A stretch of DNA of 53,112 nt from a virus (Duplodnaviria; Caudoviricetes), in the IMG/VR virus record IMGVR_UViG_3300031454_000236, positions 1 to 53,112 of that record, one strand, 5' to 3'. Below the pieces are notes generated by a model. It was not told the origin of the DNA, did not search any database, and saw nothing but the letters and a program-made list of their open reading frames with translations. Of the stretch, positions 6,448 through 13,994 are shown piece after piece. Every line of letters begins with the position of its first letter. The stretch's first letter is position 1. Position numbers and translations under genes: made by a program.

Positions 6448-6504
6448 GCCCCCCCCCCTGTCCCGCCGGGGCGCTCGCCGGTCGGAGCGCCCCGCGTCGT
6501 GTGC

Positions 6505-6915
6505 CTACGCCGCATCCGCGAGGCATACCGCCAACAATGCCCGTCTGATCCGCTTCGCTGCTGCGCGATGTTTTGCGGCGTACCTGCGGTATTTTCCAGC
6601 GGGCCAGAGTTCGCCGGAACCCGGCCCGCAATCGCTCGCGAAACCACCCGCGCCGACCGTCTTTGCGAGTTGTTGCAACTCCGGTACGGCGTAGAGTTCC
6701 CACCCCGGATAACCGTCATGCGGGGCCATCACCTCGGCGGCTTCCTCGTTGGCCGCATCATGATCGGCCTCGGCGGCGATGAGTTCCGCCGCCGCCGAGG
6801 TGATCGCTTCCAGCGTGTGCCGAGACAGCCCGGCATAACTGAGACGCATGTAGCAATCGAGCGTCGGCCAGGTGTTGCCGTATAATCGCCGATACCGCTG
6901 CTCTTCGGTCAACAT
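6505..6915 (-). CDS. Hypothetical protein
   Basis: ORF with a GGGAGG SD, co-oriented between real genes. Confidence 0.55.
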   Translation of the reverse strand: MLTEEQRYRRLYGNTWPTLDCYMRLSYAGLSRHTLEAITSAAAELIAAEADHDAANEEAAEVMAPHDGYPGWELYAVPELQQLAKTVGAGGFASDCGPGSGELWPAGKYRRYAAKHRAAAKRIRRALLAVCLADAA

Positions 6916-6933
6916 CGTGATCCTCCCCTACGC

Positions 6934-7362
6934 CTACGCCGCGACCGGCAGTGCGTCCCGCTCGATCAGCCCGCGCCGCGTCCTTCGCCGCCACTCTGCC
7001 CGAGCCGCCAGCAAAGCCACCCGATCCTCGATGCGGCTCCGGCCTGTCCTGATCCGGTAGGTGTCCACGCACAGACGCGACTTGCGCCCCAGCCGCATGA
7101 GTTGCGCGTCCGACATCCAGGCCACGCCGAGCGCGGCCAGTTCCGCCGCCCACGCCGCCTGGATCGCCGCCTCGTGCCAACAACCTTTCAAGCACTCAGC
7201 CGCCTTGCAGGTGCAAAACGTGTTGCCGGTCTGCGTGTCCAGGCTGACGACGTTGGTGCGGCGCGCATCGTGCCGACTCGCCACGGCGTAGGCGACGATC
7301 CCGGTCGTGGTGTCGGCGCTGCGGAATCGGAGGGCGGGGCGGGCGGTCTGTGTGGCGGTCAT
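6934..7362 (-). CDS. SWIM zinc-finger protein (paralog 1)
   Basis: CTCKAAECLKGCWH (CxC...CxH); SD GAAGGAG; paralog at 22099-22536. Confidence 0.75.
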   Translation of the reverse strand: MTATQTARPALRFRSADTTTGIVAYAVASRHDARRTNVVSLDTQTGNTFCTCKAAECLKGCWHEAAIQAAWAAELAALGVAWMSDAQLMRLGRKSRLCVDTYRIRTGRSRIEDRVALLAARAEWRRRTRRGLIERDALPVAA

Positions 7363-7443
7363 GGTGTAGACTCTCCTTCGTGGCTTCGCGGTCACATGAG
7401 GGGCGGATACTCTTGGTCGGGTGCCGCCCCTCTTCATGTCCTA

Positions 7444-7510
7444 ATAATACACCCAAAATATGCGCCTGTCAAGACATTGTGCGGAAGATATTCGCGTGAT
7501 ATACTGTCAA
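7444..7510. promoter_or_regulatory. Divergent sigma70 promoters between the SWIM and XRE genes
   Basis: Minus strand: TTGACA (7472-7467)-N17-TATTAT (7449-7444). Plus strand: TTGTGC (7477-7482)-N17-TATACT (7500-7505) with extended TG. Locally AT-rich. Confidence 0.75.
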
Positions 7511-7533
7511 TATACGATTGAGGCGGAGGGGCA

Positions 7534-7758
7534 ATGAACGGGCTACGGCGACTGAGGGAGCGGCAATTCCTCACGCAGACACAGCTAGCGGAACGTATGG
7601 GACTTGATCGCTACCAGACGGTCTCGGCATGGGAACGTGGCACAGCGAGGCCACGACCGGCCATGATGAAACGACTATGCGAGGCGTTGCAGGTGACTCC
7701 TGACGAGCTGCTAGCAGCACTGGAAGAGGAGGAGAACGATCGTGGCGACCGCAACTAA
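7534..7758 (+). CDS. XRE-family HTH regulator (Cro/CI-like)
   Basis: LRRLRERQFLTQTQLAERMG..YQTVSAWERG...P...KRLCEAL. Confidence 0.9.
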   Translation: MNGLRRLRERQFLTQTQLAERMGLDRYQTVSAWERGTARPRPAMMKRLCEALQVTPDELLAALEEEENDRGDRN

Positions 7759-8023
7759 GGAGATCGTCGTCTATCGGTTGTATGGAGACAGCGGCAGTTT
7801 GCTCTACATCGGCGTTACACAAAACTGGGCGCAACGGCGAGAGCACCACGCCATAGTACAACCGTGGTTCAGCGATGTAGCGCACGCTGAGTTAGAGTCT
7901 TGTCCGACACGCAAAGATGCACTGGCCCGCGAAGCAACCCTGATTCGTGAGTTGAAGCCCCGGTACAACATTCAACATCAGCCCCTACCACCGCTACCGC
8001 CTGTTGAATACATGGAACCATAG
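7742..8023 (+). CDS. Small GIY-YIG nuclease
   Basis: VYRLYG..GSLLYIGVT...R...E..LIRELKPRYN. Confidence 0.8.
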   Translation: MATATKEIVVYRLYGDSGSLLYIGVTQNWAQRREHHAIVQPWFSDVAHAELESCPTRKDALAREATLIRELKPRYNIQHQPLPPLPPVEYMEP

Positions 8024-8025
8024 AA

Positions 8026-8394
8026 AACCTCCGTAGGGGACTCCCGTATTCATACGGGAGGGGAATACGGAGCACTGCCCCGCGACGATAGACAACGTGC
8101 CGTTTTTGGCGTCAGTACTGGGGAAAATGGTATACTTACCCCAGGTCGGACGCTCCGGCGTTGCGGCTCCCTCTGGCGGGCAACCGACCAGAACGCACCT
8201 TGACAACGGATACGTTCAGGTGGGTTCCACCGCCGAATCGCTCGCGGTGGGTAAAGCGTATCGAGCGTCCACAGCTGGTGCAAACGTACCTCCTTCGTGG
8301 GGTACACCGGCCCGGACGGGGCCGTCGGGCGTCAAGCAGGACCATGGTCTTGCTGGTCCGAGAAGCCTCCGGATTCATCCGGGGGAGTCGTCAC
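8026..8394 (+). mobile_element. Non-autonomous, protein-free IS200/IS605-family element carrying a structured RNA
   Basis: The left end (hairpin 8041-8060) aligns with the tnpB element's left end (12746-12765), with compensatory changes. The right end GAAGCCTCCGGATTCATCCGGGGGAGTCGTCAC resembles 13962-13994. Both elements follow CATNGAA. Confidence 0.78.
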
Positions 8395-8412
8395 TGATCG
8401 GCTACTACACTA
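8137..8412 (+). ncRNA. Candidate omega-RNA-like transcript of the mini-element (3' guide = flank from 8395)
   Basis: Extended -10 TGGTATACT (8128-8136). Nested stems TACCCCA/TGGGGTA, GGACGCTC/GAGCGTCC, GATACG/CGTATC and CCACCGC/GCGGTGG, a GCAA tetraloop, then the IS right-end hairpin. Confidence 0.55.
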
Positions 8413-8612
8413 TCGAGCAAGCGGCGTTATTGCTCCGTATCAGCGTGGGTGGCGTCCGTCGTTTGATCAGCGACGGTAAACTAGCCGCCGTGACTTTCCC
8501 CGGCACTGCTCGTCCGAAACTGATCACCGAGGCCGAGATTGATCGCCATATTCGAGAACGAAAGCCGCGCGGGCGACCGCGCACGCGGCCCACGGACGGC
8601 ACAGGAGGATGA
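8394..8612 (+). CDS. Excisionase-like / MerR-type HTH protein; start codon split by the mini-IS
   Basis: YYTIEQAALLLRISVGGVRRLISDGKLAA...ITEAEID, with a C-terminal RPRGRPR-like basic motif. Currently begins CTG; the empty site would read ATG. Confidence 0.75.
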   Translation: MIGYYTIEQAALLLRISVGGVRRLISDGKLAAVTFPGTARPKLITEAEIDRHIRERKPRGRPRTRPTDGTGG

Positions 8613-8643
8613 GCCATCGATACCACGAGCAAGGAGAACCTCT

Positions 8644-9000
8644 ATGAACGGCCTGTACGTCTTGCACGATCGCGAGCCGGTCGCCGCACTATCGACCGAA
8701 GCGTGGGGCGCGTGGTTCCGCGATACGGCGTTGCGGCGCGTGGCGCTCACGGAGTGGCGACAAGGGGGGGACTTGACCGCGCAAGTCTCCACGGTTTTTC
8801 TCGGCATCGATCACAGTTTCAGGTCCGATCCACACACACCGATCCTGTTTGAGACGATGATCTTCGCGGTCGCCTTGCCCATGCTCGATGAATACCAGGA
8901 GCGGTATAGCTCGTGGGATGCGGCGCTCGCCGGGCATCAGCGGGCGGTCGCCGAAGTGACGACGCTCCTCGGCCCGCCGATCGACGACGGCGAATCCTGA
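8644..9000 (+). CDS. Conserved hypothetical phage protein
   Basis: VSTVFLGIDHSF...LFETMIF...QERYSSWDAALAGH; SD AAGGAG. Confidence 0.7.
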   Translation: MNGLYVLHDREPVAALSTEAWGAWFRDTALRRVALTEWRQGGDLTAQVSTVFLGIDHSFRSDPHTPILFETMIFAVALPMLDEYQERYSSWDAALAGHQRAVAEVTTLLGPPIDDGES

Positions 9001-9003
9001 TCC

Positions 9004-9240
9004 CTACGCCGCCCTGCGCCCGCCCGCCTGCGCCAGCGCCACCGGCGGCGCATCGTCCGGCAACGCCATGCCGTCCGCGTAGGTGCATGTCCGCTGATAG
9101 CGCTTCCCCCGGCGCGGTGCCAGATGGACCCAGCCCCGCGCGGGTTGGCATCCCGCCATCGCCCGTAGCGCGACCCAGCGATCCACGCCCGGTCGCCACG
9201 TCGCCCCGCAGATCGGGCAGGTCGGCAACGCGTCGCCCAC
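9004..9240 (-). CDS. Small hypothetical Cys-containing protein
   Basis: CPIC motif; follows the tail genes; start codon uncertain. Confidence 0.35.
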   Translation of the reverse strand: MGDALPTCPICGATWRPGVDRWVALRAMAGCQPARGWVHLAPRRGKRYQRTCTYADGMALPDDAPPVALAQAGGRRAA

Positions 9241-9248
9241 GCCGCCCC

Positions 9249-9650
9249 CTAGCCCCGCACCGGACCAGCGGCCCAGCGGTCGAGCGGCGCAACCGTCAGC
9301 GCGGGCGTCAGCGCCCCCGCCCCCCACAGCAGCACCGCGAGCAGCGCGTTCCGTTCCGTCGTGGTCAGCGCGGCCAGCGGCTTCCCGACCGCGCCCTGCG
9401 CCGTGGCGACGATCGCGGCCCGCGTGGTCGCCTGTTGCTGCGCTTGCTGCGCCGTCGCCGCGTCGAGCGCCGCCGGGTTGTGCGCGTCCACCACGGCCTG
9501 CACCGCCGCCACGTCCGCGCCGTCCGGCACGACGATCGTGACACTATCGCCCAGCCCGGTCACGCGCTCCGGCCTGATCCCCGCCGCGATCAATTGGTCC
9601 TGCAAGGCGTCGAGGCGGTTCGGCCTGCTATACGTCAGCGTCTTGCTCAT
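9249..9650 (-). CDS. Small tail-associated protein (fibre chaperone-like)
   Basis: TGATG overlap with the upstream tail gene; SD AAGAAGG. Confidence 0.55.
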   Translation of the reverse strand: MSKTLTYSRPNRLDALQDQLIAAGIRPERVTGLGDSVTIVVPDGADVAAVQAVVDAHNPAALDAATAQQAQQQATTRAAIVATAQGAVGKPLAALTTTERNALLAVLLWGAGALTPALTVAPLDRWAAGPVRG

Positions 9651-10567
9651 CAGACACCTTCTTTGACGAGGTACGCCCAGAGTGCGGGGTGGCCGTTGGT
9701 GATGTCGAGCGAGAGCGCCCCGCCGCTCCCCTGCGAGCAGACGAGCTCCAGCCCGTCGTTCTGGTTGAAGAGCCCGAACCCGGCGATCGCCATCTCGGTC
9801 TTGCTGCCGTCCGCGACCGCCAGGCGGCGATCTTGCAGGATCGCCGCGCCCTGTCGCCGGATCTCCATCTGCCGTTGCCCGGTCGCGTTGGCGACCCACT
9901 GGACCTGCGCGCCGAATGCGTAATATCCGGTCACGGGGATCGCGAGCAGCCCGGGGAACCCGGCGGGGCGGATGAAACGGTCGTTGAAGACGATGGTATC
10001 GAACGTCACCGGGGTCGCCGTACCGTTGGCCGTGCTCAGTGTCGCGCTGTTGGTCAGGCGGGCGCGCGGCGGCACCCACGAGGGCTGGCTGTAGCGGCGT
10101 TCGTCCGTCACCGCGCTCGCGGCGATGTTGGTCACGCCGACGTTGACGCGGACCTGCGCCAGCGCCTCCTCCCAGCGCCCGCCCCGGTTCTGCGTCAGCG
10201 CGGGCACGGCGGGGGTGACCGCCGGCGTCCCCTGCAAAACAACGGGATCAGCGAGCTTGTTCGGCCCGTCCCAGCGCAGCACGACCCGATCGATGCGCGG
10301 GTTCGTCGCGTCGGGCGGGTTGATCACCAGCGTGCGCTGCGGGGTATCGTCGGCGTAGTAGCCACCATCCAGATACGCCTCGCCTGCACCGATTTTGACG
10401 TTGTAGCCCGAGGCGTCGGCGGTGACGATCAGCGCGGGCGCGTAGGCGGCGGTGGAGACGACGGAGGGGTGGATGACCCCGTCGCCGCGCCAGAGCCGCG
10501 CCATGCGCCGCCACTGGATGTCGTCGATGATCGGGCTATCGGCGAACGGGATAGCGAGCTTCGGCAT
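9650..10567 (-). CDS. Tail tip / receptor-binding protein
   Basis: N-terminal NPRIDRVVLR...ALAQVRV...VTDER baseplate-type segment; C-terminal C1q/TNF-like beta head (IPVTGYYAFGAQVQW). Confidence 0.7.
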   Translation of the reverse strand: MPKLAIPFADSPIIDDIQWRRMARLWRGDGVIHPSVVSTAAYAPALIVTADASGYNVKIGAGEAYLDGGYYADDTPQRTLVINPPDATNPRIDRVVLRWDGPNKLADPVVLQGTPAVTPAVPALTQNRGGRWEEALAQVRVNVGVTNIAASAVTDERRYSQPSWVPPRARLTNSATLSTANGTATPVTFDTIVFNDRFIRPAGFPGLLAIPVTGYYAFGAQVQWVANATGQRQMEIRRQGAAILQDRRLAVADGSKTEMAIAGFGLFNQNDGLELVCSQGSGGALSLDITNGHPALWAYLVKEGV

Positions 10568-11730: not shown

Positions 11731-12726
11731 CTACACGCTGAGGTATGGCGGGCGCAGGCTGTACGACACCGCGCTCTGTGCGGTCGCCCCGGTCAACTCG
11801 ATCTGCACCGCGTTCGCCCCGCGCGCCAGCGGCCACAGCGCCGAGCCGGGCGCGAGGTTGGGGAGCCAGTTGGCACCGTCTTGCAAGCGCAGCGTCTTGC
11901 CATACGGCGCGCGCTCGGTGCGCGGGCGGGTGTCGATCGTCAGCGTCTGCCCAGCCACGAGCGTCCCGGTCAGCGTCAGCGCCTTGCCCGTGGTCACATT
12001 GCGAATCGTCGGGTTGACGCCCGGCCCCGCGATCGTCCAGACCGGCCACGCCTCCACATCGCCGTCGTTGGCGATCGTCGGTCCGGCGAACACTGTCGAG
12101 GGCGTGAGGCGCAGGGGTGGGAGGGGGAAGAATAACTCTCGCCACTCCCCCAGGCGGTAGTTGCCGATGCGCTCGTTGCGGTCGTACCAGAACGGGTCGT
12201 AGGCGCGCAGCACGAGCGTGGTGCGGCGGTCGGTGCGCCACGCGCCCAAGTCGTCGTTGAAGTCGAGCCCCTTGACGTAGCGCACGGCGATCTCGCGCTG
12301 CGCCCCGTCCGGCGCGGTGAACCGCAGCACGGGCGCGACGGCGCGCGTCGGGTTGAACCAGCCGAGCAACGTCCGCACGGATGCGGCGAGCGCGGCGGGG
12401 GTCGCGGCCAGGAGCCGGAGCGGCACGTCGATCTCGCGCGCCAGGAAACGCACCTCCCTGAGTCGCCCGCCCGGCTGGCGCGGCACGTTCTCGGCGATCA
12501 GGTCCACGGGCGGCATGTGCAGCCCTTCGAGGCCCAGGAGGACGAAGAGCGGATAGCCGTCCATCAGGCTGTGCTCGATGCCATCGGGGTCGAGCACCGA
12601 CAGTCCGCCGAGCGGAGGTGCCGGTGCCGGGGGGGGCGGGGGCAGGGTGCTTCCGTCCACGAGGATCGTGCCATCGCTCGCGGTGAGTTGATTGCCCAGG
12701 TGGTCGGTGAGGATCGTGGCGCTCAT
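11731..12726 (-). CDS. Distal tail protein (Dit)
   Basis: LEGLHMPP, LRAYDPFWY, NDGDVEAWPVWTIAGP and LWPLARGAN. Confidence 0.82.
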   Translation of the reverse strand: MSATILTDHLGNQLTASDGTILVDGSTLPPPPPAPAPPLGGLSVLDPDGIEHSLMDGYPLFVLLGLEGLHMPPVDLIAENVPRQPGGRLREVRFLAREIDVPLRLLAATPAALAASVRTLLGWFNPTRAVAPVLRFTAPDGAQREIAVRYVKGLDFNDDLGAWRTDRRTTLVLRAYDPFWYDRNERIGNYRLGEWRELFFPLPPLRLTPSTVFAGPTIANDGDVEAWPVWTIAGPGVNPTIRNVTTGKALTLTGTLVAGQTLTIDTRPRTERAPYGKTLRLQDGANWLPNLAPGSALWPLARGANAVQIELTGATAQSAVSYSLRPPYLSV

Positions 12727-12730
12727 CGAA

Positions 12731-13994
12731 ATTCTCCGCTGGATACTCCCGGTTTCAACCGGGAGAGGAAAGCGGTGCCGTTGTCAAGCGCCGATACTCG
12801 TAGTAATATATGAACATGGATATGCAGCGTACCGTGCGACTCAGACTCCTTCCCGATGCCGACACCGCCGCGTTATTCGCGGAGACGGTGGCGCTGTATA
12901 CGTCCTCGTTCAACGTCGTTGCGGCGGCGGGGTGGACTGCGGGTATCGCCAATGGCGTGGAGTTGCACAAGGCGACGTACTATCCCGAGCGAGCCAGGAC
13001 AGGACTCCCCGCGCAACTGGTCTGCGCCGCGCGCGTGAAGGCCACCGAGGCATTGAAGTCGGCCAGGGCGCTGACCGTGAAGGAGATGAAGCGCCCCGAG
13101 GACAAGCGCCATCTGCCGTCCCTGCCGCAGTCCGACCATTGCCCGATCCGCTACGACGCCCGCTCCTACCGCGTCAACCTTCCCGCCGGTACGGCCTCGT
13201 TGCTGACCACACAGGGGCGCAAGGTCGTGACGTTCCGCCTCTCCCCCTACCATCGGCGCTACGCCGACTGGCGCACGGCCAGCGCCGACCTGTTCCGCGA
13301 CCATCAGGGCCGTTGGTGGCTGCACGTGGTCGTCACCGCCCCGACGCCTGCCAGCGAACCGACTACCGAGACGGTAGGCGTCGATCTCGGCATCATCCAT
13401 CCCGCCACCGATTCGCGCGGGAACCACTATGGCTCCGAACACTGGCAGGCGGTCGAGGAGCGCACACACAATCTCAGGCGACGATTGCAAGCCAAAGGCA
13501 CCCGCAGCGCCAAGCGACACCTGAAAAGGCTGTCCGGCAAGCAGGGACGGTTTCGGCGCGACTGCGATCACGTCCTGTCCAAGCGTCTCGTCACGAGCGT
13601 CCAACCCGGAGCGACACTCGTCTTCGAGGATTTGACGGATATTCGGGGGCGGGCCAAGGCCCGCAAGCAACAGCGGCGACGGCTGCACTCCTGGTCGTTC
13701 GCGCAATTGCAGGCGTTCGCGGTGTACAAGGCACAGGCGCGCGGCGTGGCAGTCGCCTACGTCGATCCGCGCTACACCAGCCAGAAATGTAGCGCGTGCG
13801 GGCATCGGGAGCGGGCGAATCGCCCGAACCAAGCCGACTTCCGCTGCGTCTCGTGTGGCTTCGTCTGCAACGCCGACCATAACGCCTCACTGAATATCCG
13901 CCAGGACTACCTATCGAGGGCGGCTGTCAGCCCGCCTATTGTCTCGGCACTGTGCCAGGGACAAGCCCCCGGTCTTTAGCCGGGGGTCGTTGAC
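12731..13994 (+). mobile_element. IS200/IS605-family element (tnpB only, IS1341-like)
   Basis: Subterminal hairpins CTCCCGGTT-TC-AACCGGGAG (12746-12765) and CCCCCGG-TCTTTAG-CCGGGGG (13966-13986), ending TTGAC. No tnpA in the window. Confidence 0.85.
12810..13979 (+). CDS. tnpB: RNA-guided endonuclease TnpB
   Basis: RuvC I VGVDLGI, RuvC II VFEDL, zinc ribbon CSAC...CVSC and RuvC III NADHNASLNI; all catalytic residues present. Confidence 0.95.
   Translation: MNMDMQRTVRLRLLPDADTAALFAETVALYTSSFNVVAAAGWTAGIANGVELHKATYYPERARTGLPAQLVCAARVKATEALKSARALTVKEMKRPEDKRHLPSLPQSDHCPIRYDARSYRVNLPAGTASLLTTQGRKVVTFRLSPYHRRYADWRTASADLFRDHQGRWWLHVVVTAPTPASEPTTETVGVDLGIIHPATDSRGNHYGSEHWQAVEERTHNLRRRLQAKGTRSAKRHLKRLSGKQGRFRRDCDHVLSKRLVTSVQPGATLVFEDLTDIRGRAKARKQQRRRLHSWSFAQLQAFAVYKAQARGVAVAYVDPRYTSQKCSACGHRERANRPNQADFRCVSCGFVCNADHNASLNIRQDYLSRAAVSPPIVSALCQGQAPGL

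What the first reader, a model, noticed from the sequence alone, without database searches (positions are those of the whole stretch)
8020..8415. Protein-free IS200/IS605 mini-element carrying a structured RNA, inserted inside the ATG of an excisionase-like gene
Seen: 8026-8394 has ends that align with the tnpB element at 12731-13994. The left ends read GAA|AACCTCCGTAGG..ACTCCCGTATTCATACGGGAG.GGAATACGG and GAA|ATTCTCCGCTGG..ACTCCCGGTTTCAACCGGGAG.GGAAAGCGG, with compensatory pairs in both stems. The right ends are AAGCC-hairpin-TCGTCAC and AAGCC-hairpin-TCGTTGAC, and both elements follow CATNGAA. In place of tnpB it carries an extended -10 promoter and ~260 nt of nested stems: a ~170-nt multi-helix domain with a GCAA loop and a boxA-like GCACCTTGACAAC, then an omega-RNA-like 3' part. 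Removing the element joins ...TAGAA to TGATCGGCTAC and recreates ATG-ATC-GGC-TAC (MIGYYTIEQ). With the element in place only CTG remains, preceded by a GGGGAG SD inside the hairpin. Known: IS200/IS605 elements excise precisely, and TnpB guides come from the right flank. Inference: a stand-alone guide-RNA element used in trans against element-free phage copies, and possibly an excision-dependent switch for the Xis-like protein. The extra 5' RNA domain is unexplained.
Basis: partly seen in the sequence, partly recalled or inferred. Interest (0 to 1): 0.88.

Follow-up and report, generated by a model that had tools for sequence, protein, structure and literature searches.

The report
Protein-free IS605 mini-transposon splitting a phage gene
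A 373-base, gene-less hitch-hiker transposon of the IS200/IS605 kind, present in many copies in rock microbial communities, has landed ten bases inside a small DNA-binding (excisionase-like) gene of a prophage; it is a well-known type of element, not a new RNA system.

Summary
The element is real, but its left boundary and the "inside the ATG" reading are wrong. It spans window 8022-8394 (373 nt). It is a non-autonomous IS200/IS605 element (a PATE). At least 15 copies with different left flanks were found, and its depth is about 15-20x that of the flanks in three rock metagenome runs.

An uninterrupted allele of a gene hit by another copy fixes both ends to the nucleotide: the target CCAT stays, and the element reads AGAAAACC...GTCGTCAC.

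In the window it sits in codon 4 of an HTH_17 gene (ATG GAA CCA T|TG ATC). Relatives of that gene start M-E-x-L-x-G.

The ends follow IS608 geometry. The cleavage site lies 19 nt before the left hairpin and 9 nt after the right one. Guide and cleavage tetranucleotides are complementary and covary in 9 of 9 left-end variants.

A covariance model built without the element matches its last 98 nt at E=1e-22. This assigns it to a TnpB clade other than the prophage's own tnpB (30% identity).

The central ~200 nt remain unexplained and vary between copies. Guide-RNA-bearing PATEs that TnpB acts on in trans are already in print.

Verdict: a new member of a known kind.

The parts
8018..8021 (+). Target / left cleavage site CCAT. 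It is host-phage DNA, not part of the element, and is the expected TAM for a cognate TnpB.
   Evidence: All 15 mini-element copies follow CCAT and the base before it varies. Uninterrupted alleles P0150/P0151 of the gene hit in L029 retain the codons TCC AT|C. Homologues of the L027 gene all start MG, which is ATGG, the complement of CCAT.
8022..8394 (+). Non-autonomous IS200/IS605 element (a homogeneous PATE), 373 nt, with no transposase and no tnpB.
   Evidence: Complete copies at 99.7-100% identity lie in L029 and L027. Unitigs end at 8394.
8022..8097 (+). Left end: guide tetranucleotide GGGA (8037-8040), subterminal hairpin 8041-8060 (8 bp, loop TTCA), outer stem 8029-8035/8066-8072, and a GATAGACAA box.
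   Evidence: It is 92% identical to the left end of an autonomous tnpA+tnpB element in L019 (Y1_Tnp E=9e-35). The hairpins are seen. The cleavage site lies 19 nt 5' of the hairpin foot, as in IS608 (PMC3201880 passage).
8098..8296 (+). Variable core of unknown function. It contains TGgTATACT (8128-8136) and a segment bounded by a perfect 8-nt inverted repeat (8148-8155 / 8263-8270).
   Evidence: No match to any fetched locus other than copies of itself. None in Rfam, in phage records, or in the 401 Chloroflexota genomes beyond chance-sized hits. A variant contig in run X3 skips 8150-8275, and the variant in L014 and X6 carries an HNH ORF inserted at about 8249/8250.
8297..8394 (+). Omega-RNA-like / right-end module: hairpin A 8308-8324, hairpin B 8325-8361, guide tetranucleotide GAAG 8362-8365, subterminal hairpin 8366-8385, cleavage site TCAC 8391-8394.
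   Evidence: Model R1 was built from 5 right-end regions of related elements without this one. It matches 8297-8394 end to end at 77.1 bits, E=1.2e-22. In a 6-sequence alignment, 20 of 30 predicted pairs show compensatory changes.
8395..8414 (+). Right flank that would act as the guide of a read-through omega RNA (inferred), and the continuation of the split HTH gene.
   Evidence: Inferred by position, by analogy with the ISDra2 reRNA, whose last ~16 nt come from the flank (PMC8612924 passage). Not tested.
8012..8612 (+). Split HTH_17 'excisionase / transcriptional regulator'-like gene: the first 3 1/3 codons at 8012-8021, and the rest at 8395-8612.
   Evidence: HTH_17 E=3e-10. phrog_66 E=3.7e-5. 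Homologues of 72-91 aa start M-E-x-L-x-G. L030 reads ATG GAA GAA TTG CGC GGG TAT TAC.
7742..8023 (+). GIY-YIG ORF whose stop codon TAG (8021-8023) is created by the target-T | element-AG junction.
   Evidence: GIY-YIG E=1.1e-7. PHROG endonuclease families are matched only over positions 3-78 of 162-175. The frame was read.
12727..13994 (+). Second, tnpB-carrying non-autonomous IS605-family element in the same provirus. It follows TCAT (12723-12726), which is the complement of the start codon of the Dit-like tail gene.
   Evidence: Copies with other flanks lie in L004/L006, L009 and L018. There is no Y1 transposase anywhere in the window.

Best explanation
Window 8022-8394 is a 373-nt non-autonomous IS200/IS605 element, a homogeneous PATE (palindrome-associated transposable element). 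It encodes neither a transposase nor TnpB.

How it most likely moves:
- A Y1 (HUH) TnpA made elsewhere in the host would move it by single-strand 'peel and paste'. The kind of TnpA meant is the one encoded next to a 92%-identical left end in locus L019.
- TnpA binds the subterminal hairpins 8041-8060 and 8366-8385.
- The internal guide tetranucleotides GGGA and GAAG pair with the cleavage sites CCAT (in the flank) and TCAC (the last bases of the element).
- The element is cut out precisely and re-inserted 3' of another YCAT, without target duplication.

What it did here: it landed in codon 4 of a 72-aa HTH_17 (Xis/regulator-like) prophage gene. The start codon and two further codons are now separated from the rest of the gene, and a TAG is created at the junction. 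The gene is most likely off, or at best translated from a non-canonical start, until a precise excision restores it.

The RNA part: the last ~98 nt carry the conserved three-hairpin module found at the 3' end of a particular TnpB clade in Chloroflexota-type genomes. If transcribed through into the flank, this module would give an omega RNA whose guide is TGATCGGCTAC.... A cognate host TnpB could use that RNA in trans to cut the emptied site (CCAT + guide) and so restore the element.

Shown: identity, boundaries, target, end geometry, multi-copy state, and clade of the right end.
Inferred: TnpA action, transcription, use by TnpB, and the effect on the phage.

The central ~200 nt are most likely dispensable filler or a nested insertion, not a dedicated RNA domain.
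For: Copies and abundance:
- The left-end pattern found 25 metagenome loci. 14 of them carry this element, and with the window that gives 15 different left flanks.
- Three further complete copies exist. Two are 377-nt shared blocks at 99.7-100% identity. One is an 831-nt variant.
- Depth is 320-450 over the element against 14-26 on the flanks in X1, with similar ratios in X2 and X3. The unitigs end at 8394.

Boundaries:
- The L029 copy interrupts a PF06146 membrane-protein gene. Its uninterrupted alleles P0150 and P0151 read TTRSTSI[C/R]PFL. That equals left flank + CCAT + right flank and nothing else.
- The L027 copy abuts a gene whose 12 examined homologues all start MG.
- 4 of the 5 closest homologues of the split gene start M-E-x-L-x-G. 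L030 reads ATGGAAGAATTG.

IS608 rules (passages of PMC3201880 and PMC5934647):
- The left cleavage site lies 19 nt 5' of the hairpin foot, and the right one 9 nt 3' of it.
- Guide and cleavage tetranucleotides are complementary at both ends.
- Flank base -4 and element base +17 covary: C:G in 4 left-end variants and T:A in 5, so 9 of 9. Neither position was fixed by the search pattern.

Partners:
- An autonomous relative carries Y1_Tnp (E=9e-35) next to a 92%-identical left end.
- The right-end module matches model R1, built without this element, at 77.1 bits and E=1.2e-22 over 8297-8394.
- 20 of 30 predicted pairs are compensatory.
- There is no Y1 TnpA in the window.
Against: - No RNA data exist: no RNA run holds the stretch. 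Transcription, RNA ends and any TnpB use are therefore unshown.
- The consensus scan found no sigma-70-type promoter on the + strand inside the element.
- The hairpin nearest the end is also the TnpA substrate. Part of the conserved 3' structure could therefore be kept for DNA-level reasons alone.
- The conserved module is only ~98 nt, whereas the ISDra2 reRNA is ~150 nt. The sequence upstream of 8297 has no counterpart in the TnpB-encoding relatives.
- No intact cognate (L019-type) tnpB was shown in the same genome as any copy. One L019 tnpB copy is cut by the contig end, and the other lies directly downstream of an HNH ORF and reads only from an internal GTG.
- No contig joining 8021 to 8395 was seen for this phage in the four runs laid.
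- One row of the models (L058) comes from an unpublished genome, G001.
Confidence: 0.85

Rival explanations
1. Pure DNA parasite. The element is a PATE, but its 3' hairpins persist only through recent descent and as TnpA substrate. No functional omega RNA is made and no TnpB acts on it.
For: - All copies are at least 98% identical, which points to a recent burst, so conservation within the family says nothing.
- No promoter was found by the scan.
- The module is shorter than known reRNAs (passage).
- The upstream part of the scaffold, which in relatives overlaps the tnpB coding end, is missing.
Against: Hairpins A and B (8308-8361) lie outside the part that TnpA needs in IS608. They are nevertheless kept, with compensatory changes, across six elements that differ widely in sequence, including another protein-free one, L068. 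PATEs 'often encode omega RNAs' according to PMC10055086 (passage).
Confidence: 0.35
2. The element is 8026-8394 and is inserted between the A and the TG of the start codon. Its target is TAGAA/CATNGAA, and it works as an excision-dependent switch of Xis.
For: Removing 8026-8394 does formally give ATG ATC GGC. Precise excision is a family property (84 passages).
Against: - The uninterrupted L029 alleles allow only 4 retained bases, CCAT. Seven or eight retained bases would add residues that are absent.
- The homologues' N-terminus M-E-x-L-x-G is encoded by ATG GAA CCA T|TG across the corrected junction.
- An 8026 boundary puts the cleavage site 15 nt rather than 19 nt from the hairpin foot, and it breaks the guide/cleavage pairing and its covariation.
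Confidence: 0.03
3. The central ~200 nt (8098-8296) encode a functional structured RNA carried as cargo: an sRNA, a riboregulator, or a 5' extension of the guide RNA with its own promoter.
For: - The + strand folds somewhat better than shuffles: z=-2.6, with 3 of 200 shuffles as good. The - strand gives z=-1.6.
- An extended -10-like TGgTATACT lies at 8128-8136.
- The core is kept in most copies.
Against: - There are no Rfam matches, even at E up to 10.
- No relatives exist outside near-identical copies, so there is no covariation.
- A variant lacks 8150-8275, and another tolerates a 454-nt HNH gene in the middle.
- The depth of the central bin is lower than that of the ends: 322 against 451 and 422 in X1.
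Confidence: 0.12
4. IStron-like element. The 5' domain is a self-splicing intron that removes the element from mRNA, so sense-strand insertions in ORFs stay harmless.
For: Two copies (the window and L029) sit in ORFs in the sense orientation. The 5' exon would end in U. PATEs with IStron ends are described in 10.1101/2023.11.20.567912 (legend passage).
Against: There is no group I or group II intron or ribozyme match at E up to 10 over 7900-8600. The element ends in C, not the terminal G of group I introns (recalled rule). The core is dispensable in variants.
Confidence: 0.02
5. ORF 8097-8612 is a genuine 171-aa protein with an N-terminal extension.
For: The frame is open through the element.
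Against: - Of the 28 relatives found across 1.84 billion representatives, the closest are 72-91 aa and match from their residue 5-25 on.
- The extension is the transposon itself, and it sits at many unrelated loci.
- Other frames are open too in this GC-rich DNA.
Confidence: 0.01

Closest known systems
PATEs (palindrome-associated transposable elements) of IS200/IS605, as defined in Haloquadratum (PMC3119063) and seen as omega-RNA-bearing minimal elements in Geobacillus stearothermophilus (PMC10055086)
   Same: - No terminal inverted repeats.
- Palindromes near both termini that match those of IS605-type transposons.
- No target duplication.
- Too short for a transposase.
- A 'homogeneous' family with more than 90% identity.
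- Nested insertions of other small elements.
- An omega-RNA-like right end that would need a TnpB in trans.
   Different: - Different host lineage (Chloroflexota-like, rock communities) and a YCAT target.
- It carries ~200 nt of unrelated core.
- This copy lies inside a prophage gene.
- I saw passages of the two papers only.
IS608 of Helicobacter pylori (mechanistic paradigm; PMC3201880, PMC5934647)
   Same: The left cleavage site is outside the element, 19 nt 5' of the hairpin foot. The right cleavage site is inside it, 9-10 nt 3' of the hairpin foot. The 4-nt guides 5' of each hairpin pair with the cleavage tetranucleotides in the same register (guide base 1 with cleavage base 2, guide base 2 with cleavage base 1). 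The third base of each cleavage site is A.
   Different: The sites are CCAT/TCAC with guides GGGA/GAAG, instead of TTAC/TCAA with AAAG/GAAT. There is no tnpA or tnpB. No biochemistry has been done.
TnpB reRNA / omega RNA of ISDra2 (PMC8612924)
   Same: A structured RNA module ends at the right end, so a read-through transcript would carry flank-derived guide bases. The TAM equals the transposon's target site.
   Different: Only ~98 nt are conserved, against ~150 nt. No tnpB lies in cis. Expression and binding are untested. No Rfam model covers this clade: even the window's bona fide tnpB right end gives no match.
IStron-derived PATE of Clostridioides difficile (10.1101/2023.11.20.567912)
   Same: A protein-free element with IS605-type ends and a structured 5' part.
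   Different: No group I intron signature was detected.

Membership tests
IS200/IS605 family, non-autonomous (PATE) | Subterminal imperfect palindromes at both ends and no terminal inverted repeats | tested here: met
   Hairpins 8041-8060 and 8366-8385, both with a TTCA loop. The two termini are not inverted repeats of each other.
IS200/IS605 family, non-autonomous (PATE) | Insertion 3' of a conserved tetranucleotide, with no target duplication and a scarless empty site | tested here: met
   All 15 copies follow CCAT. The 4 complete copies have unrelated right flanks. Uninterrupted alleles P0150/P0151 equal flank + CCAT + flank.
IS200/IS605 family, non-autonomous (PATE) | Cleavage sites at IS608-like distances from the hairpins, recognised by guide tetranucleotides 5' of each hairpin | tested here: met
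   Distances are 19 nt (left) and 9 nt (right). GGGA pairs with CCAT and GAAG with TCAC in the IS608 register. Flank base -4 and element base +17 covary in 9 of 9 left-end variants (rule from passages).
IS200/IS605 family, non-autonomous (PATE) | A Y1 (HUH) TnpA with matching ends exists to mobilise it in trans | tested here: met
   L019 carries Y1_Tnp (E=9e-35) directly behind a left end 92% identical to this one. There is none in the window itself. Co-residence in one genome was not shown.
IS200/IS605 family, non-autonomous (PATE) | Too short to encode a transposase, and present in multiple copies at unrelated sites | tested here: met
   373 nt. ORFs through it are not conserved. 15 flanks. 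Depth ratio of about 15-20.
IS200/IS605 family, non-autonomous (PATE) | Actual excision and integration by TnpA | not testable with these tools
   Needs an excision assay.
TnpB omega RNA (reRNA) | Structured scaffold at the 3' end of the element, homologous to that of TnpB-encoding relatives and ending at the right end | tested here: met
   Model R1 (5 relatives, this element left out) gives 77.1 bits, E=1.2e-22, over 8297-8394, matching model positions 1-99 of 99. 20 of 30 pairs are compensatory. One of the rows (L058) comes from an unpublished genome.
TnpB omega RNA (reRNA) | Transcribed, processed, carries a ~16-nt flank-derived guide and is bound by TnpB | not testable with these tools
   No RNA run holds the stretch.
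TnpB omega RNA (reRNA) | Match to a curated RNA family | tested here: inconclusive
   No Rfam match. Rfam also fails on the window's real tnpB right end, so the blank says nothing.
IStron (group I intron fused to IS605/IS607 ends) | Group I intron core in the 5' part | tested here: not met
   No intron or ribozyme family at E up to 10 over 7900-8600.
HTH_17 excisionase/regulator family (the disrupted gene) | HTH_17 domain in a protein of ~70-90 aa | tested here: met
   PF12728 E=3e-10. phrog_66 E=3.7e-5. The closest relatives are 72-91 aa. A role as excisionase rather than regulator was not tested.

The most novel reading that the evidence does not exclude
This IS605 clade may be built to live at start codons. 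Its target YCAT is the complement of ATGR. The reverse complement of its left end places a Shine-Dalgarno-like GGAG(G) 6-7 nt before that ATG. An insertion just upstream of an antisense gene's start codon would therefore replace the gene's ribosome-binding site rather than kill the gene.

Observed cases: a glycosyltransferase (L009), a C5 methylase (L018), a terminase-nuclease-like gene (L027), and probably the phage's Dit tail gene.

In addition, the variable core of the protein-free copy could be an RNA cargo with its own promoter.
Probability: 0.15. Interest if true: 0.5.

Novelty: new member of a known kind. Interest (0 to 1): 0.3.

Why it matters
- It corrects the annotation of this provirus. 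The HTH_17 gene is split by a transposon in codon 4. The stop codon of the neighbouring GIY-YIG ORF is a product of the insertion. Neither transposon in the provirus can move without a host TnpA.
- It provides a cleanly bounded, recently active PATE family with a defined target/TAM (YCAT) and natural covariation between target and guide bases. Together with its likely TnpA and TnpB relatives, this could serve as a compact Chloroflexota-type test system.
- It does not reveal a new kind of RNA or defence system.

Tried and rejected
Searches that found nothing:
- Rfam at gathering thresholds over the whole window: none.
- Rfam at E up to 10 over 7900-8600: only Scr5676 at E=0.38, 19 bits against a cut-off of 56, taken as chance.
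- Rfam on the tnpB element as a control: nothing relevant.
- blastn of the element against 50,697 phage records: no match.
- An exact 30-mer of the core in viral contigs: 0.
- The left-end pattern in genome contigs: 0.
- The left-end pattern in viral contigs: only the tnpB-type copy, L004.
- The element against 401 Chloroflexota genomes: 10 genomes with matches of 25-47 nt. In 5 genomes the match is to the right-end tip. There was no whole copy. Write 'not found in those searched'.
- The Xis-like protein in viral contigs: no relative. Its homologue P0001 did find L030 and L031.

Sequencing runs:
- No RNA holder is listed.
- No contig joins 8021 to 8395 in runs X1, X2, X3 or X6. Contigs drop rare variants, so this is not evidence that an empty allele is absent.

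Relatives of the tail gene did not give an empty site for the tnpB element, because their upstream neighbours differ.

Boundary hypotheses considered:
- Element starts at CATAG, with 1 base retained. Rejected by the MG start of the L027 homologues and by the L029 alleles.
Rejected and by the M-E-x-L-x-G N-termini.
- Four retained bases (CCAT). Accepted.

Other points:
- GIY-YIG fused to HTH_17 was not found among the 8 longer HTH_17 hits scanned.
- MAFFT could not align the core with the tnpB 3' coding ends.
- The start-codon preference is weak statistically. Of about 19 distinct sites, 3 lie at verified start codons and 1 at a probable one. My own rough expectation is 5-8%, which is not a computed test.
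- Supplementary files were not opened. The PATE tables of PMC3119063 and the extended data of PMC10055086 may hold closer relatives.
Full report
**What is in the sequence.** The window is an IMG/VR provirus record of 53,112 bp. An integrase-like ORF sits at its left end.

Around the finding, the + strand carries the following:
- an HTH_3 gene at 7534-7758;
- a GIY-YIG ORF at 7742-8023;
- the stretch in question;
- an HTH_17 domain that begins right after 8394.

A tnpB gene with the OrfB_IS605 and Cas12f1-like_TNB domains lies at 12810-13979. The left ends of the two elements align well, with 62 invariant columns of 112 and compensatory hairpin changes. The right ends share AAGC-hairpin-TCGT..AC.

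**It is a multi-copy mobile element.** I laid contigs of four rock-metagenome runs on 6500-10000. The element is a separate unitig, 8018/8019-8394, in X1, X2 and X3. Depth in X1 is 320-450 against 14-26 on the flanks, with similar ratios in X2 and X3. Loose ends differ before 8017 and after 8395.

A degenerate left-end pattern found 25 metagenome loci:
- 14 carry this element; with the window that makes 15 different left flanks;
- 3 carry the tnpB-type element;
- 8 carry other left-end variants.

Complete copies lie in L029 (100% identical), L027 (99.7%) and L014 (an 831-nt variant). The tnpB-type element also occurs with other flanks in L004/L006, L009 and L018.

**Where the element begins and ends.** All copies share a block that starts CCATAGAAAAC (TCATAG... 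in the tnpB type) and ends GTCGTCAC. Three independent lines show that CCAT is target DNA and that the element starts at AGAAAAC.

1. The L029 copy interrupts a PF06146 membrane-protein gene. Uninterrupted alleles found elsewhere (P0150, 100% identical over the 79-aa query; P0151, 97%) read TTRSTSI[C/R]PFLTIAII. That is exactly left flank + CCAT + right flank. Retaining one base, or seven, would delete or add a residue.
2. The L027 copy lies, in antisense, directly before a terminase-RNaseH-like gene. All 12 homologues examined start MG, so ATGG (the complement of CCAT) is native.
3. In the window, the flank reads ATG GAA CCA T (8012-8021) and continues after the element with TG ATC GGC TAC TAC. 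This gives M-E-P-L-I-G-Y-Y-T. The closest homologue (81% identical, 72 aa) starts MEELRGYYT, and 4 of the 5 closest start M-E-x-L-x-G. Its DNA in L030 reads ATG GAA GAA TTG CGC GGG TAT TAC.

The element is therefore 8022-8394 (373 nt). The insertion is in codon 4, not in the ATG. The TAG that ends the GIY-YIG ORF (8021-8023) is made by the junction itself.

**Family membership.** With this boundary the ends obey the IS608 rules, which I read in passages of PMC3201880 and PMC5934647.
- The left cleavage site lies 19 nt 5' of the foot of the hairpin 8041-8060.
- The right cleavage site TCAC ends 9 nt 3' of the hairpin 8366-8385.
- The tetranucleotides 5' of each hairpin (GGGA, GAAG) pair with CCAT and TCAC in the IS608 register.

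Across nine left-end variants in the fetched loci, flank base -4 and element base +17 covary. They are C:G in the mini-element, L019, L021/L024 and L023. They are T:A in the tnpB type, L013, L026, L015 and L017. Neither position was fixed by my search pattern.

In L019, a left end 92% identical to this one is followed by a Y1 transposase (E=9e-35) and the start of a tnpB. The window holds no Y1 transposase. Both of its elements are therefore non-autonomous.

These are the defining features of a PATE as set out in PMC3119063 (passages).

**The RNA part.** The last ~98 nt align with the 3' ends of related elements:
- L019 (75% identity over 90 nt);
- L057 and L058 from Chloroflexota MAGs;
- L071;
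- L068, which looks protein-free.

The alignment folds into three hairpins, and 20 of 30 predicted pairs are kept through changes on both sides.

A covariance model built from five of these, without the mini-element, matches 8297-8394 end to end at 77.1 bits (E=1.2e-22). The window's own tnpB right end reaches only 10 bits. The window's TnpB is 30% identical to the L019-type TnpB and 48% to the L024 type.

So the mini-element's guide-RNA-like module belongs to a TnpB clade other than the one in this prophage. Any partner would be a host enzyme. Whether the RNA is made is unknown: no RNA run holds the stretch.

By analogy with ISDra2 (PMC8612924, passages), the guide would be the first 16-20 bases of the flank, and the TAM would be YCAT.

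**The unexplained core.** Positions 8098-8296 match nothing except copies of the element itself.
- They fold only modestly better than shuffles: z=-2.6 on the + strand and -1.6 on the - strand.
- The copies are too alike for covariation.
- The core varies between copies. A contig in X3 skips 8150-8275, which nearly coincides with a segment bounded by a perfect 8-nt inverted repeat, 8148-8155/8263-8270.
- L014, and a contig in X6, carry a 454-nt insertion at about 8249/8250. It holds an HNH endonuclease ORF (phrog_2255, E=1e-11) flanked by CGCGGTG repeats.
- The central depth bin is lower than the terminal ones.

I read the core as dispensable filler or a nested insertion. A functional RNA cargo is not excluded (about 0.12).

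**Comparison with what is known.** Minimal IS605-type elements without genes were named PATEs in 2011.

An IStron-like reading fails for lack of any intron signature.

The finding is a new member of a known kind. Its boundaries, target and likely partners are now defined.

**Consequences for the phage.** Translation from ATG 8012 now stops after three codons. The remaining HTH_17 frame has only CTG (8394) behind a GGGGGAG in the right-end hairpin. I consider the gene most likely inactive until a precise excision.

In the inferred empty site, the GIY-YIG ORF has no stop and runs in frame into the HTH_17 ORF. No natural fusion of that kind was found among the 8 longer hits scanned.

The host assignment to Chloroflexota rests only on the nearest TnpB relatives, one of which comes from an unpublished genome.

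Noticed in passing
window 8022-8045 (reverse complement), 12723-12745; L009, L018, L027, L025: Read on the opposite strand, the left end plus its target gives GGAGG-TTTTCT-ATGG (GGAGAAYTTCK-ATGA in the tnpB type). This is a Shine-Dalgarno-like motif 6-7 nt before an ATG.

Insertions abut true start codons of antisense genes in three loci:
- L009, a GT4 glycosyltransferase whose domain starts at residue 28;
- L018, a C5 methylase matched from profile position 2 at residue 5;
- L027, whose homologues start MG.

The window's Dit-like tail gene (start at 12726) is a probable fourth case. L025 is at an internal Met. The enrichment is weak and was not formally tested. The CTCC is also part of the outer stem of the left end, and it was fixed by my search pattern.
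   Followed up: partly
window 7742-8023 and 8395-8612: In the inferred empty site, the GIY-YIG ORF has no stop codon and continues in frame into the HTH_17 ORF, about 165 aa in all. Its present TAG is created by the insertion. The PHROG endonuclease families that match it are 162-175 positions long, and only positions 3-78 are matched.
   Followed up: partly
L014:8392-8845 (also run X6, record 24): A variant of the mini-element carries a 454-nt insertion flanked by CGCGGTG direct repeats. It holds a 142-aa HNH endonuclease ORF on the opposite strand (phrog_2255 E=1e-11; no Pfam match at E below 0.01). Either an HNH gene invaded the PATE, or the short form arose by deletion between the repeats.
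   Followed up: partly
window 12782-12811: The tnpB element has a near-consensus promoter-like TTGTCA-17 nt-TAATAT that ends about 4 nt before the tnpB ATG, which suggests a leaderless tnpB mRNA. I read this by eye and did not run the scan tool on the region.
   Followed up: no
L010:13612-13832: A fragment of the left end is repeated in tandem with an 82-nt period at a contig end. The junction GTGCCG|TAGAAAAC fits neither a normal insertion nor the element boundary. It may be an assembly artefact.
   Followed up: no
L019:2188-3642 (minus strand): The L019-type tnpB copy whose right end is closest to the mini-element lies directly downstream of a 206-aa HNH_3 ORF (E=1.3e-8), and its reading frame starts only at an internal GTG. 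This is a second case of an HNH gene associated with this transposon clade.
   Followed up: no
window 8039-8045 and 8383-8389: There is a perfect 7-nt complementarity between the left end (GACTCCC) and the right end (GGGAGTC) of the element. It could pair the two ends in the single-strand form, or it could simply reflect similar hairpin stems.
   Followed up: no
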